Assembly: GCA_027491435.1 (NCBI GenBank)
Contig: JAOZFG010000034.1
Span: 1-62,726 of the forward strand
DNA from: Thermoproteota archaeon
GTDB taxonomy: Archaea; Korarchaeota; Korarchaeia; Korarchaeales; Korarchaeaceae
Direction of reading: 5' to 3'
DNA length: 62,726 nucleotides
Positions 33,620 to 36,490 of the stretch are shown here, one piece after another (position 1 is the first letter of the stretch; every line of letters begins with the position of its first letter). The position numbers and the translations under genes are program-made. The notes beneath the pieces were generated by a model. It did no database searches. It was not told the origin of the DNA and worked only from the letters and a program-made list of their open reading frames with translations.

Positions 33620-33910
33620 AGAGGTCCCAGCACAGCCCCTAACAGTACTTATTGTTTATCCCTGCGGGCCGCCCTGCAGTAGGCGGAGGACGTTTTTCAG
33701 CTAAAAAACGTTCGACTTCAGGCCAATCACTCAACTCTTAATTTCACATTTACATACTAGGCTGTTATCACCAACATATAATTAACATAACTGATTTATT
33801 TATAAAAAATATAACTTAAAAATTTTTATCAGAAATTAAGCTAACGAAAAGTTTAAATATGATAAATGCTAGTCGCGCGTGGAGCCTCTTTTCGGGGGGT
33901 GAGACGTTTG

Positions 33911-34072
33911 ATGGTGAGGCTAGGGAGCAAGGGGTTACTCAGGATACCCATGTACCTGTTGAAGGAGCTCAACCTCAAGGAGGGGTCGGTCCTCCACCTG
34001 GAAGTTGAGGATGGCAAGATAGTCCTCAGGCCCAGGATAGCCAGGGCCAACTGCACTGGTATGGTGGGCTAG
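33911..34072 (+). CDS. AbrB/MazE/SpoVT-family DNA-binding protein
   Basis: 'VRLGSKGLLRIP...LNLKEGSVLHLEVEDGKIVLRP'. Confidence 0.75.
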   Translation: MVRLGSKGLLRIPMYLLKELNLKEGSVLHLEVEDGKIVLRPRIARANCTGMVG

Positions 34073-35371
34073 GCCCTGGCTTCCCCTCCCGTCAACCACT
34101 TCCAGATGGGAACTACTTTTATCTTGCACCTCTCCAGCAGAGTCTGCTCCTCATCCCAGGTGACTACCGTTGCTTCCTTAATCCTGAGCTCCGGCTGTTA
34201 GGAGGGAAATAAACGCCTTGAGAAGTTTTTGTTGCTTCCTTAATCCTGAGCTCCCTACATGCTTCTAACACTTTCTTTAGGTGGACGTGCTCTAGCTTAA
34301 GGGTAACTTCCACCAACTCAACGGGCTTGCCTGCACGTCGGACCACGAAGTCCACCTCACGGCCAGATTTAGTGACGTAGTATGAAATCTCCTCCCCCGG
34401 TCCCCTAGACCTCCTCTTCAGTTCAAGATAGACCGAGTTCTCCACTCTCCTGCCCAGATCCATGACCGAGCTGAAGACGTTAGATATGGCCACATCCACA
34501 AGGTAGACTTTCTTTGGGGAGATTCTCCTTATCCTCTCTGATGCGGAGCTCCTATACACGGTGAATATTAGGAAGGCTTCCCTCATATACTCCACGTAGT
34601 TTATCAAGGTCTTGGTATCTACACTAACCCCCTGGGCTTTTAACAACCTCCTCAGAGAGTTCCAGGTCACCAGATTGGAATAGTTGGAGAGTACGAAGTA
34701 GACACGTCCCTAAACTCGCTTAAATCCCTTATACCGTGCCTTTCTATCACGTCCCTGTAAAAGATAGTCTCAAGCAGTGAGATCACCTTCTCTCTGGACC
34801 TGAAGAGCCAGACCTCAGGAAATCCTCCCCACTTCAAGTAGTCGTTGAGGAGAGACCTTATCCTCCCCCTCTCCCTGAAGGTCAAGCCCTTAGAGCTTGC
34901 CACCTCTCTAAAGGAGAGGGGGAGGAGCAACTTTGAGCTGTAGCGTCCCCTAAGCTGGGTAGGTATCTCGGATGAATGAAGGGCTGAGGATGAGCCGGAA
35001 ACGTAAAGATAGAAATCTTTGACGTCGTGAAGCCAACGAAGCTTTCTACCCCAGTCCGGCCACTCCTGAACCTCATCCAGGAAGAGGTGAACCCTCCCTT
35101 CAGGATACTCAGCTCTAACCATCTCAGCAAACTCCCTAGCCTCGACTTTTCTGACTAGTGGTTCATCAAAAGGTATATAGAGAGCCTGTCCTCCCTTATC
35201 CAAGATGGATTGAGCTAATTTCAGCATGATGAAGGTCTTCCCAACTCTTCTAGGTCCTATGACAGCTATTATGTCCGGGAACGATTGAGGAAGGGAGAAA
35301 TCTCTGGGAACCTCCTGGACGTACTTTAGGGAGCCAAGGTACTCAAGGGTGAGCTCCTTTAGGAAACCCAT
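34069..35371 (-). pseudogene. AAA+ ATPase (AAA_14/DUF4143) pseudogene with two lesions
   Basis: 'GPRRVGKT', 'FLDEVQ', 'GGFPE', 'KKVYLVD', 'EVDFV'. Frameshift near 34702 and a 62-bp insertion at 34169-34254; the original tail 'VVTWDEE...KVVPIWKWL' is recoverable. Confidence 0.88.
34169..34254. repeat. Two exact 24-bp direct repeats separated by a 38-bp insert (single repeat-spacer-repeat unit)
   Basis: GTTGCTTCCTTAATCCTGAGCTCC at 34169-34192 and 34231-34254. Confidence 0.92.
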
Positions 35372-35704
35372 AGACTTATACTCCACAGATATATAAATAG
35401 TTTGGATTGGTAGTCAATAGAATTAGTCAGTAATGTTGGTCAGTCCAACCGAGGTTTAGCTGCTCTATCAAGCGGAGGGCGATCTGTAGGGCTTGCCCTG
35501 ATAGATTCTATGGGATAGCCCTGCAGAAAATTTCTCTCATACCCTTCATAGCTTAGGGTAGATTTCCCAAAGGAGCTTAGGAAAAGTCCTCGAAAGCCCT
35601 CAGGTGGTAAGAAATGCAGGAGAACTGCATAGTTGGGTTCGCTGAGTACTCGTCCAACAGCTGTTCCCCTGTGCCTGTCATTCCCTTAACTTTCACTTCC
35701 TTAT

Positions 35705-36490
35705 TTAGCTCCCCATTATCCTGCGATAATCCCCTTCCACAAGCCCTCCTACCAAGTCTAGGTAGACTTGGGTGGTGTTCAAGTTTGAGTGGCCCAGTAT
35801 GGCCTGTAAGGCCCTTATGTTACCTCCCCTCAGAAGGTAGAGTATGGCGAAGCTGTGCCTGACCTTGTGGGGCGAGGAGTTGAGTGCCTGCTTGACCCAC
35901 CTCCTAATTGTTCTATCAGACCTGGGGAATACCCTTTCACCCCCGCTCACCGCCTTAAGCTCCCTCAAAACGCTGGCAGTATAGTCGGTGAAGTAAACGA
36001 CCCTGTCCTTCTCACCCTTCCCCCTGACCAGGGCTTTCCTGGCCTCCAAGTCGATCCGATCCCAGGTCAGGGAGACGAGCTCGCTGACCCTGACCCCTGT
36101 ATCAGCTAGGAAGAGCAAGGCAGCCTTCCTGATAAGGGGCAAGTCCTTAACAGCTTCCCTCAGGGACTGAACTGACTCTAAGAGCTCCCTGCTAACCCTG
36201 GGCTTTGGAGGAGGAGCCCTCATGCTCTTAGCTAGTCTTCTAACCTCCTGAAGGAGGTCTTGTCTGCCAGCGACTTCAAAGAGGCGGACTAACCTCCGGA
36301 GGTAGGTCCTCAGGGTGATGGGCTTCACCCTCTCCTGCATCAAAGCTACCCAGGCCCTCAAGTCAAGTGGGGTCAGCTGGTCCAGGGGCTTAAAGCTCAG
36401 GAGGGACCTGAACAGGCCCTCGTACTTTTTCCTGGATAGGGGCGAGAGCCCGGCGAGGGCCGCCTTTATCAGCACGTCCTCTTCCATCAA
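35705..36490 (-). CDS. Tyrosine recombinase, XerA-like
   Basis: 'TGVRVSEL', 'GKGEKDR', 'HKVRHSFA', 'LGHSNLNTTQVY': full R-K-H-R-H-Y set. Confidence 0.9.
   Translation of the reverse strand: MMEEDVLIKAALAGLSPLSRKKYEGLFRSLLSFKPLDQLTPLDLRAWVALMQERVKPITLRTYLRRLVRLFEVAGRQDLLQEVRRLAKSMRAPPPKPRVSRELLESVQSLREAVKDLPLIRKAALLFLADTGVRVSELVSLTWDRIDLEARKALVRGKGEKDRVVYFTDYTASVLRELKAVSGGERVFPRSDRTIRRWVKQALNSSPHKVRHSFAILYLLRGGNIRALQAILGHSNLNTTQVYLDLVGGLVEGDYRRIMGS

What the first reader, a model, noticed from the sequence alone, without database searches (positions are those of the whole stretch)
34169..34254. Fossil of an off-target CRISPR spacer integration inside a protein-coding gene
Seen: an exact 24-bp duplication (GTTGCTTCCTTAATCCTGAGCTCC) flanks a 38-bp insert (GGCTGTTAGGAGGGAAATAAACGCCTTGAGAAGTTTTT) for which I saw no match elsewhere in the window. 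Removing insert plus one copy (62 bp) restores the ATPase frame to its family-typical end: ...RELRIKEATVVTWDEEQTLLERCKIKVVPIWKWL. The repeat is therefore duplicated coding sequence. Knowledge: Cas1-Cas2 duplicates one repeat length around a spacer; crenarchaeal arrays have ~24-25-bp repeats and ~38-42-bp spacers; IS target duplications are usually much shorter. The minus-strand copy ends GCAAC, like many repeat ends. Inference: a natural ectopic adaptation event that disrupted a gene and created a one-spacer neo-array.
Basis: partly seen in the sequence, partly recalled or inferred. Interest (0 to 1): 0.85.

Follow-up and report, generated by a model that had tools for sequence, protein, structure and literature searches.

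The report
Stray CRISPR spacer inside a gene
An archaeal ATPase gene is interrupted by a 38-base foreign insert flanked by a 24-base duplication of the gene's own sequence, sizes that match this organism's CRISPR spacers and repeats, so it is most likely a rare natural scar of the CRISPR memory enzyme inserting a spacer in the wrong place.

Summary
An exact 24-bp direct repeat (34169-34192, 34231-34254) flanks a unique 38-bp insert (34193-34230) in the 3' part of a minus-strand AAA_14/DUF4143 ATPase gene. The displaced C-terminal coding tail follows in another frame. In 62 of 63 metagenome and 36 of 37 genome homologue loci the same two segments are contiguous and in frame.

The host assembly has CRISPR arrays with 24-nt repeats and 35-40-nt spacers. 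It also has two intact type I-A csa1-cas1-cas2-cas4 modules. A complete congener has 24/25-nt repeats, and 38 nt is the second commonest of 119 spacer lengths. The target weakly mimics the host leader-repeat junction and has G at both joining positions.

Best reading (about 0.68): a natural off-target Cas1-Cas2 spacer integration. This process is known from E. coli and from in vitro work.

Not shown: no protospacer was found, although a control with 119 genuine spacers also found none. No reads or same-species empty allele were available. The gene carries a second lesion, a 1-nt deletion. "Neo-array" function is unsupported.

Caution: I found other clean repeat-insert-repeat events with spacer-sized inserts but duplications of 22, 35, 39 and 230 bp. 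One is in a genome with no detectable Cas2.

The parts
34169..34192 (.). Copy 1 of the exact 24-bp target-site duplication. On the gene (minus) strand this is the second, downstream copy, still joined to the original C-terminal coding tail.
34193..34230 (.). 38-bp unique insert, the putative spacer. Its GC content is 0.42 against 0.518 for the genome.
   Evidence: No exact match in viral, metagenome or genome collections.
34231..34254 (.). Copy 2 of the 24-bp duplication. On the gene strand this is the first, upstream copy, still joined to the body of the gene.
   Evidence: The blastn alignment to the intact homologue L004 ends exactly at 34231.
34069..35386 (-). AAA_14 + DUF4143 ATPase gene, now a pseudogene in three frame segments. 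It carries two lesions: the 62-bp insertion and a 1-nt deletion.
   Evidence: ORFs 34667-35386 and 34164-34670. (PF13173 E 8.2e-30; PF13635 E 2.5e-16). (tblastn in frames -1, -3, -2: 181/223, 123/160 and 18/36 identical to an intact homologue).
34069..34168 (-). Displaced original C-terminal coding tail plus stop codon, out of frame with the gene body because of the 62-bp insertion.
   Evidence: It is contiguous and in frame in 62 of 63 and 36 of 37 homologue loci.
34700..34703 (-). Second, independent lesion: a 1-nt deletion (frameshift) between the AAA_14 and DUF4143 parts.
   Evidence: the HSPs meet at window 34703/34700 in different frames.
33866..34072 (+). Context only: convergent small AbrB/MazE-type gene. 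Its end overlaps the old ATPase stop codon.
   Evidence: PF04014, E 1.2e-09.
35705..36490 (-). Context only: tyrosine recombinase (phage integrase family) gene upstream of the ATPase gene. No tRNA gene lies nearby.
   Evidence: (PF00589, E 1.7e-27).

Best explanation
This is a fossil of an off-target (ectopic) spacer integration by the host's type I-A Cas1-Cas2 integrase.

Proposed steps:
1. A spacer-sized (38-bp) DNA fragment held by Cas1-Cas2 was joined by its two 3' ends to the two strands of the ATPase gene, at points 24 bp apart. This is the same stagger the enzyme uses on a CRISPR repeat.
2. Filling the two single-stranded gaps duplicated the 24 bp of coding sequence on either side of the insert.
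3. The net 62-bp insertion shifts the frame and cuts off the last ~35 codons.

What is shown: the anatomy, the ancestral uninterrupted state in homologues, the match to the host's repeat and spacer sizes, and the presence of intact adaptation genes.

What is inferred: that Cas1-Cas2 did it, that the 38 bp came from foreign DNA, and the orientation. On the gene strand the upstream side plays the part of the leader.

The structure is most likely inert. It is a mutation and a cost of adaptive immunity, not a working CRISPR locus.
For: 1. Dimensions.
- The duplication is 24 bp and the insert 38 bp.
- Both host repeat families are 24 nt. The 9 assembled host spacers are 35-40 nt, giving a period of 59-64 against 62 here.
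- A complete congener (G012) has 25- and 24-nt repeats. Of 119 spacers in its main 25-nt array, 33 are 38 nt and 49 are 39 nt.

2. Machinery.
- There are two open, full-length cas1 genes (232.9 and 226.7 bits), each with cas2, cas4 and csa1.
- One module sits beside an array. The other sits in a type I-A locus with cas3', cas3'' and cas5a.
- Two versions of the leader-proximal end of one array, with different spacers and an identical 78/78 flank, suggest recent acquisition in the population.

3. True insertion.
- The segments before and after the insert are contiguous and in frame in 62 of 63 metagenome loci and 36 of 37 genome loci. These include 5 loci from genomes found in the relatives search.
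- The two exceptions are the same distant (33% identical) homologue with a spurious tail hit 1.5 kb away.

4. The insert is foreign to the assembly and unique. It has no terminal inverted repeat on inspection of the sequence. The flanks are unrelated.

5. Target features.
- G is the first duplicated base on both strands. Cas1 of S. solfataricus and E. coli prefers G at this +1 position (PMC4574026, passages).
- In the gene-strand orientation the site matches 9 of the 16 positions shared by the two host leader(10 nt)+repeat(24 nt) junctions. Only 0.63% of all genome sites score as high, and the other orientation scores 3 of 16.

6. Precedent.
- Off-target integration and 'neo-CRISPR' formation are reported for E. 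coli (Nivala et al. 2018, seen only through citing passages in 10.1101/148544, PMC7054753 and PMC6698737).
- Type I-A Cas1-Cas2 has low intrinsic specificity in vitro (PMC5815122, passages and section 19).

7. A second, polymorphic event of the same build exists in another archaeon: a 22-bp duplication plus a 38-bp insert. Filled and empty alleles are 99.6% identical over the 600 bp compared around the site. This shows that such insertions are real in nature.
Against: - No protospacer or PAM was found: 0 exact hits in viral, metagenome and genome collections. Phage hits were only chance-level (best 26 of 30, E 0.1). There was no plasmid hit, and nothing significant in 40 genomes of the class (best 25 of 30 in a housekeeping gene, E about 0.01 per genome). 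This blank is weak evidence: 119 genuine spacers of the congener also gave no phage hit.
- No reads were available and no same-species contig exists (best 79-81% amino-acid identity). The assembly and the polymorphism are therefore unchecked.
- The duplicated 24-mer is only 9 of 24 and 10 of 24 identical to the host repeats. That places it in the top 13% and 5% of genome sites. The conserved-position test was designed after seeing the data.
- Clean repeat-insert-repeat events with spacer-sized inserts but other duplication lengths exist: 39/33 on contig C25 of this same assembly, 35/35 and 22/38 in genome G052, and 230/40 in G012.
- G052 shows only a solo cas1 interrupted by an in-frame stop. 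It shows no Cas2, Csa1, Cas4 or Cas3 above cut-off. Some other process may therefore make such structures, in which case the 24-bp length would be a coincidence.
- A complete congener has no event of CRISPR dimensions outside its arrays.
Confidence: 0.68

Rival explanations
1. A generic, Cas-independent 'duplication plus filler' mutation. Examples would be repair of a staggered break, or a replication template switch that duplicates a short stretch and traps an unrelated piece of DNA. On this view the size match to the CRISPR unit is a coincidence.
For: Other clean events have different duplication lengths: C25:5482 (39/33), L157:3301 (35/35), L215:14992 (230/40) and L085:3767 (22/38). Two of these are in G052, where no Cas2, Csa1 or Cas4 was detected.
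Against: - The duplication equals the host repeat length exactly, and the insert sits at the mode of the lineage's spacer lengths.
- The inserts checked against their own genomes (C40, C25, L215, L085) are not templated from there.
- From my own knowledge, no process other than Cas1-type integration is known to insert unrelated 33-40-bp DNA with a target duplication.
- The inserts cluster at 33-40 bp in 5 events, which itself looks like a spacer ruler.
- G052's completeness is not given, and arrays are often missing from bins.
Confidence: 0.2
2. An assembly artefact, or a chimera of strain variants in a metagenome-assembled genome.
For: The assembly is fragmented (43 contigs, 2.54% contamination). 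No sequencing run could be listed, so no read check was possible. The same gene also carries a 1-nt frameshift, which could be a sequencing error.
Against: The 38 bp occur nowhere else in the assembly, so reads must span both junctions for a graph assembler to place them (inference). An equivalent event in another lineage is present in two separately deposited records, and two more records carry the empty site.
Confidence: 0.07
3. The footprint or remnant of a mobile element: an IS/MITE, a casposon, or an integrase-mediated element using the neighbouring tyrosine recombinase.
For: A phage-integrase-family gene lies 320 bp upstream of the ATPase gene. AAA_14/DUF4143 genes often sit in variable regions (my own knowledge).
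Against: - The insert has no terminal inverted repeats (seen directly in the sequence).
- There is no second copy of insert or repeat in the genome, and no tRNA target.
- From my own knowledge, a 24-bp duplication is longer than known IS or casposon duplications.
- The two 38-bp inserts (window and L085) share only one 6-mer (my inspection), so they are not a family.
Confidence: 0.03
4. A spliced element: an archaeal bulge-helix-bulge intron whose removal of 62 nt would restore the frame in the mRNA.
For: Removing any 62-nt register within the repeat-insert-repeat restores the frame.
Against: The RNA folds worse than all 200 shuffles (z = +2.75). There is no Rfam match. The gene has a separate frameshift. 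98 of 100 homologue loci lack any insert at this place.
Confidence: 0.02

Closest known systems
Off-target ('non-canonical') spacer integration and neo-CRISPR formation by Cas1-Cas2 in E. coli (Nivala, Shipman & Church 2018). The paper itself was not held; I saw it only through citing passages in 10.1101/148544, PMC7054753, PMC6698737 and PMC9456107.
   Same: A spacer-sized insert at a non-CRISPR site, flanked by a duplication of about one repeat length. The target has a weak likeness to the leader-repeat junction.
   Different: The published cases come from cells over-producing type I-E Cas1-Cas2. For natural genomes, 10.1101/148544 speaks only of 'circumstantial evidence' in two other species. 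From recall, not from a call, I believe these were Yersinia pestis and Sulfolobus islandicus. The present case is a natural event in an uncultured Thermoproteota archaeon with type I-A, inside a protein-coding gene. It has one spacer only and no sign of later expansion.
In vitro off-target integration by archaeal Cas1-Cas2: P. furiosus (PMC6698737) and S. solfataricus type I-A (PMC5815122, PMC4574026).
   Same: Type I-A Cas1-Cas2 integrates promiscuously without host factors. It prefers G at +1. Off-target sites share features with repeats. This site has G at +1 on both strands and a T at -3.
   Different: Those are plasmid assays, mostly scored as half-site or PCR products. Here a completed, repaired, inherited full-site event is seen in a chromosome.
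Canonical CRISPR array, or a virus-borne or orphan mini-array.
   Same: Repeat-spacer-repeat layout with a 24+38 period.
   Different: The 'repeat' is ATPase coding sequence, 9-10 of 24 identical to the host repeats. It lacks their palindromic core and 3' end. No leader is present. A genuine two-repeat mini-array seen in locus L130 carries a recognisable CRISPR-type repeat resembling those of G000 and G012, unlike this site.
Transposon, IS or casposon target-site duplication.
   Same: A direct duplication of target sequence flanking inserted DNA, made by staggered joining and gap repair.
   Different: The insert is only 38 bp, carries no inverted ends and no gene, and is single-copy. The duplication is 24 bp and equals the CRISPR repeat length.

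Membership tests
Off-target Cas1-Cas2 spacer integration | Target duplication of one CRISPR repeat length of the host | tested here: met
   The duplication is 24 bp, and both host repeat families are 24 nt.
Off-target Cas1-Cas2 spacer integration | Insert length within the host's spacer-length range | tested here: met
   The insert is 38 bp. The 9 host spacers are 35-40 nt. In the congener's 119 spacers, 38 nt occurs 33 times and 39 nt 49 times.
Off-target Cas1-Cas2 spacer integration | Host encodes Cas1 and Cas2 | tested here: met
   Two csa1-cas1-cas2-cas4 modules with open frames and scores above the curated cut-offs.
Off-target Cas1-Cas2 spacer integration | Uninterrupted (empty) target site is the ancestral state | tested here: met
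   Contiguous and in frame in 62 of 63 and 36 of 37 homologue loci. No same-species allele was available; the best match has 79-81% amino-acid identity.
Off-target Cas1-Cas2 spacer integration | Insert derives from foreign DNA, with a protospacer and PAM | tested here: inconclusive
   No match was found. The control with 119 genuine spacers also found nothing in the phage collection.
Off-target Cas1-Cas2 spacer integration | Target resembles the leader-repeat junction, and Cas1's preferred acceptor base is present | tested here: inconclusive
   G at +1 on both strands. 9 of 16 conserved junction positions match, which puts the site in the top 0.63% of genome sites, but the test was post hoc and about 20,700 sites score as well. 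Whole-repeat identity is only 9-10 of 24.
Off-target Cas1-Cas2 spacer integration | Junctions confirmed in reads, and integration reproduced by the host enzyme | not testable with these tools
   No sequencing run was listed. The biochemistry is not available here.
Functional CRISPR array (neo-CRISPR) | Repeats recognisable by the host's processing and adaptation machinery, a leader with promoter, and further spacers | tested here: not met
   Repeat identity to the host repeats is 9-10 of 24. There are two copies only. No structure or Rfam CRISPR match was found at the site. Expression could not be tested.
IS / MITE / casposon insertion | Terminal inverted repeats, multiple copies, and a short duplication (from my own knowledge, up to about 15 bp) | tested here: not met
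   No inverted ends in the insert. It is single-copy in the genome. The duplication is 24 bp.
Archaeal bulge-helix-bulge intron | Stable helix-bulge structure at both junctions | tested here: not met
   The fold is weaker than all 200 shuffles, and there is no Rfam hit.

The most novel reading that the evidence does not exclude
The window's event may be one member of a wider, unrecognised class. In this class, unique spacer-sized inserts (33-40 bp) are flanked by target duplications of variable length: 22, 24, 35, 39 and 230 bp. They are scattered through archaeal chromosomes at gene ends, gene starts and in frame inside genes. At least one is polymorphic in nature.

If all are Cas1-family integrations with a variable stagger, including in a genome where only a solo cas1 is seen, they would be a readable mutational signature of CRISPR adaptation. 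They would also be a natural source of gene disruption, in-frame protein insertions and proto-arrays.

If instead they are Cas-independent, they point to an undescribed insertion mechanism with a ~35-40-bp ruler.
Probability: 0.2. Interest if true: 0.8.

Novelty: new member of a known kind. Interest (0 to 1): 0.6.

Why it matters
Off-target spacer integration is the presumed route by which new CRISPR arrays are born, and it is also a hidden cost of adaptive immunity. The evidence so far comes almost entirely from E. coli over-producing Cas1-Cas2 and from test-tube reactions.

This would be a clean natural scar in an uncultured hyperthermophile-type archaeon with a type I-A system. It would imply that the 24-bp spacing of the two joining reactions is kept on a target that is only about 40% identical to the repeat. 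In other words, the spacing would be set by the enzyme and not by the repeat sequence. It would also show that such events can hit protein-coding genes.

The event gives a concrete substrate (this 24-mer with its flanks) for testing what the type I-A integrase recognises. The extra events found in passing suggest that a systematic scan of archaeal genomes for repeat-insert-repeat scars would be worthwhile.

Tried and rejected
Protospacer searches. All were blank or at chance level.
- The exact 38-mer gave 0 hits in viral contigs, metagenome contigs and genome contigs.
- blastn against phages gave a best hit of 26 of 30, E 0.1, to Staphylococcus phages. There was no plasmid hit.
- The own genome gave only 14-mers.
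- In 40 genomes of the class the best hit was 25 of 30, at the same place in G013 and G019, inside a flavoprotein/4Fe-4S housekeeping gene, with E 0.01-0.02 per genome. I judged this chance.
- Control: the 7.5-kb array of G012 (119 spacers) also gave no phage hit, so these blanks say little.
- The inserts of the four other events were also searched exactly in viral contigs, with 0 hits. The L085 insert gave no phage hit and nothing else in G052.

Reads. The look-up of sequencing runs listed no run: none was listed, no RNA holder was listed, and read laying was therefore not used.

Same-species empty allele. None was found. The closest DNA was 73-75% identical. The closest proteins were 79-81% identical.

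Whole-repeat similarity of the target to the host repeats and leaders was weak: 9 of 24 and 10 of 24. I do not rest on it.

Rejected readings.
- Intron: rejected.
- tRNA-linked integration: rejected.
- Decayed tandem repeat: rejected.

Scan of the complete congener G012. It found no event of CRISPR dimensions outside arrays. The candidates with 18-26-bp repeats there are periodic coiled-coil-type coding repeats whose flanks are often related (12-23 of 45 identical).

G052 searches. Only a solo cas1 interrupted by an in-frame stop was found. Cas2, Csa1, Cas3 core above cut-off, Cas4 and arrays with a TGAAAG-ending repeat were not found. G052's completeness is not given.

Orientation of the host arrays. 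The Rfam CRISPR-DR matches to host repeat A were below the gathering score and gave no reliable orientation. Orientation rests on two things: the degenerate last repeat of the G012 array, and my recalled knowledge that the ...GATTGAAAG end gives the crRNA 5' tag.

Literature and tools.
- The Marsarchaeota + CRISPR search gave nothing useful.
- Nivala et al. 2018 is not held.
- Supplements of papers were not consulted. Those of PMC6698737 and PMC5815122 may list off-target site sequences that bear on the target motif.
- Not used: the structure, complex, atlas, homologous-protein, protein-representative and cluster tools.
Full report
THE OBSERVATION

The window carries an exact 24-bp direct repeat at 34169-34192 and 34231-34254, separated by 38 bp. 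At up to three mismatches these are the only two copies in the window, and none of 100 shuffles gave two. The 38-mer occurs once in the window. The repeat cannot be extended by one base on either side. The 45 bp flanking the two copies are unrelated (12 and 9 of 45 identical). It is therefore a clean repeat-insert-repeat and not a decayed tandem repeat.

The structure lies in the 3' part of a minus-strand gene. The two ORFs of that gene carry AAA_14 (E 8.2e-30) and DUF4143 (E 2.5e-16).

WHAT THE GENE LOOKED LIKE BEFORE

A tblastn of an intact 413-residue homologue (locus L004) against the window gives three collinear pieces in three frames:
- residues 3-225, 181 of 223 identical;
- residues 227-386, 123 of 160 identical;
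- residues 376-411, 18 of 36 identical.

The last piece is the natural translation of 34072-34191, ending ...VVPIWKWLTGGEARA, with the stop at 34069-34071. The blastn alignment to that homologue ends exactly at 34231. Four homologues in genomes of the same genus end in the same ...PLWKWL motif without any insert.

I then asked, for every fetched homologue locus that matched both the segment before and the segment after the insert, whether the two are contiguous and in frame. They are in 62 of 63 metagenome loci (first count) and in 36 of 37 genome loci. Some records occur in both sets. The single exception in each set is the same distant homologue (33% identical), whose 'tail' hit lies 1.5 kb away in another frame.

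The gene is therefore broken twice, and the order of the two events is unknown.

THE HOST'S CRISPR SYSTEM

The window is contig C40 of a 1.64-Mb, 43-contig assembly (99.46% complete, 2.54% contamination). The closest named relatives of the ATPase are MAGs labelled Thermoproteota or Crenarchaeota archaeon.

A scan of the assembly found two repeat families, both 24 nt:
- one at C4:10202-10538 and C15:38-183;
- the other at C15:575-722.

The nine spacers are 35-40 nt long, giving a period of 59-64. The end of C4 and the start of C15 share an identical 78-bp flank, offset by one base at the junction, but carry different flank-proximal spacers. This looks like population variation at the leader end, that is, recent acquisition.

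Two adaptation modules (csa1, cas1, cas2, cas4) are intact. One is beside the C4 array. The other is in a type I-A locus on C43 with cas3', cas3'' and cas5a.

A complete genome of the same genus (G012), which I tiled and scanned, has 120 copies of a 25-nt repeat. Its spacer lengths are 36 nt (3 spacers), 37 (17), 38 (33), 39 (49), 40 (12), 41 (3), 43 (1) and 49 (1). It also has small arrays, one of them with a 24-nt repeat.

So 24 + 38 is exactly one unit of this lineage's arrays.

OTHER FEATURES OF THE SITE

The first duplicated base is G on both strands. Cas1 of S. solfataricus and E. coli prefers G at the acceptor (+1) position (PMC4574026, passages).

Whole-repeat identity of the 24-mer to the host repeats is low. 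It is 9 of 24 and 10 of 24 in the gene-strand orientation, and 4 and 5 of 24 in the other.

I then restricted the comparison to the 16 positions that the two host leader(10 nt)+repeat(24 nt) junctions share. The site matches 9 of them in the gene-strand orientation and 3 in the other. Only 0.63% of all sites on both strands of the genome score 9 or more. I devised this test after seeing the data, and about 20,700 sites score as well. It is a modest pointer to orientation and to target mimicry, no more.

The region has:
- no RNA structure (z = +2.75, all 200 shuffles fold at least as well);
- no Rfam match of note;
- no tRNA gene nearby;
- no terminator-like site.

ORIGIN OF THE INSERT

The 38-mer has no second copy in the assembly. 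It has no exact match in the viral, metagenome or genome collections, and no credible match in the phage or plasmid collections. A 25-of-30 match in two related genomes falls in a housekeeping gene and is at chance level for the space searched.

As a control I searched the congener's whole array, with 119 genuine spacers, against the phage collection. It also found nothing. The viruses of this lineage are simply not in the collection, and the blank does not count against a spacer origin.

The insert's GC content (0.42) is below the genome's (0.518) and within the range of the host spacers (0.37-0.56).

MECHANISM

The best explanation is a full-site off-target integration by the type I-A Cas1-Cas2 complex. 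Two transesterifications occur 24 bp apart on opposite strands, gap filling duplicates the 24 bp, and a 62-bp frameshifting insertion results.

The process is known:
- Citing passages describe off-target integration and 'neo-CRISPR arrays' in E. coli over-producing Cas1-Cas2. They mention only circumstantial evidence in two other species (10.1101/148544; PMC7054753).
- P. furiosus Cas1-Cas2 integrates in vitro at non-CRISPR sites that share features with repeats (PMC6698737).
- S. solfataricus type I-A Cas1-Cas2 is promiscuous without host factors (PMC5815122).

I could not read Nivala et al. 2018 itself.

If the reading is right, the exact 24-bp stagger on a target that is only about 40% identical to the repeat argues that the spacing is set by the enzyme and not by repeat-internal motifs. 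This is inference.

Nothing supports a working 'neo-array'. The duplicated sequence does not resemble the host repeat, there are only two copies, and expression could not be examined.

A CAUTION FOUND ON THE WAY

I scanned the 142 foreign loci fetched by then (590,669 bases), then G000, the tiled G012 and the later loci, for exact repeats with unrelated flanks. This turned up further clean repeat-insert-repeat events.

The clearest is in loci L085 and L142, the latter titled a Candidatus Marsarchaeota MAG:
- It has a 22-bp duplication around a 38-bp unique insert.
- It lies about 25 bp downstream of the stop of a homologue of the same ATPase family.
- It covers the start codon of the next gene.
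- Two contigs (L077, L089), 99.6% identical over the 600 bp compared around the site, have the empty site with one 22-mer.
- It is therefore a genuine insertion polymorphism.

That genome (G052) shows only a solo cas1 interrupted by an in-frame stop. It shows no Cas2, Csa1, Cas4 or Cas3 above cut-off, though its completeness is not stated.

Other events:
- 35/35 on G052's contig C48, covering the start of a gene;
- 39/33 on contig C25 of this very assembly, in frame;
- 230/40 in G012, in frame.

The inserts of the C25 and G012 events have no other copy in their genomes. None of the four inserts has an exact viral match.

So the inserts cluster at 33-40 bp in five events, while the duplications range from 22 to 230 bp. 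Two readings are possible. Cas1-type integration may occur with a variable stagger, which would widen the finding. Or a Cas-independent 'duplication plus filler' process may exist, in which case the 24-bp length here could be a coincidence. I cannot decide between them, and this is why confidence stays near 0.68.

VERDICT

- It is a new natural member of a known kind of event.
- It is of moderate interest in itself. The interest would be higher if the wider class of spacer-sized insertions proves to be a Cas1 signature.

Noticed in passing
L085:3767-3848 (same as L142:3767-3848 and G052:C46:1026-1107); empty sites at L077:3767-3788 and L089:3648-3669: A second insertion of the same build in another archaeal lineage (record titled Candidatus Marsarchaeota MAG). 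An exact 22-bp duplication flanks a unique 38-bp insert, about 25 bp past the stop of an AAA_14/DUF4143 ATPase homologue, and covers the GTG start of the next (HEPN-like) gene. Contigs 99.6% identical over the 600 bp compared carry the empty site. In that genome only a solo cas1 with an in-frame stop was found, and no Cas2, Csa1 or Cas4.
   Followed up: partly
G000 contig C25:5482-5592 (not in the window): An exact 39-bp duplication flanks a unique 33-bp insert, in frame (72 bp) inside an ORF (...NASGGSSSDMES / PREVVPATGHTK / NASGGSSSDMES...). A similar ~13-bp motif lies before the first copy and after the second. C25 has the lowest GC content of the assembly (0.479).
   Followed up: partly
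G012:C1, locus L215:14992-15491: An exact 230-bp duplication flanks a unique 40-bp insert, in frame (270 bp) inside a nucleotidyltransferase-like ORF of a complete congeneric genome. The insert has no other copy in that genome.
   Followed up: partly
G052:C48 = L157:3301-3405; contig ends of L157: An exact 35-bp duplication flanks a unique 35-bp insert, covering the ATG of an HTH-like gene. The same 13-kb contig carries the interrupted solo cas1 among glycosyltransferase genes, and its two ends are inverted copies of each other over about 100 bp. That could be an artefact or an element; I did not pursue it.
   Followed up: no
G000 C4:10202-10538 and C15:38-262: The base of repeat family A that lies furthest from the leader-side flank varies between copies (C, C, A, A, T, T on the plus strand of C4; C in all three copies on C15). 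The C4 and C15 versions of the repeat-flank junction differ by one extra base. This could mean that this position is supplied by the incoming spacer, or that integration slips by 1 nt.
   Followed up: no
window 34700-34703 (minus-strand gene): A one-base deletion frameshifts the ATPase gene between its AAA_14 and DUF4143 parts, independently of the 62-bp insertion. It may be real or a sequencing error.
   Followed up: partly
L130:1843-1937 (record titled Candidatus Brockarchaeota MAG): A genuine two-repeat mini CRISPR array lies about 600 bp upstream of an ATPase homologue. Its repeat is 25 nt and recognisably of the CRISPR type seen in G000 and G012; the first copy is degenerate at five bases.
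   Followed up: no
L058, L125, L130 (about 2369-2449), L059:263: Pairs of 18-22-bp palindromic boxes spaced 34 bp apart lie just upstream of several ATPase homologues. They look like operator sites.
   Followed up: no
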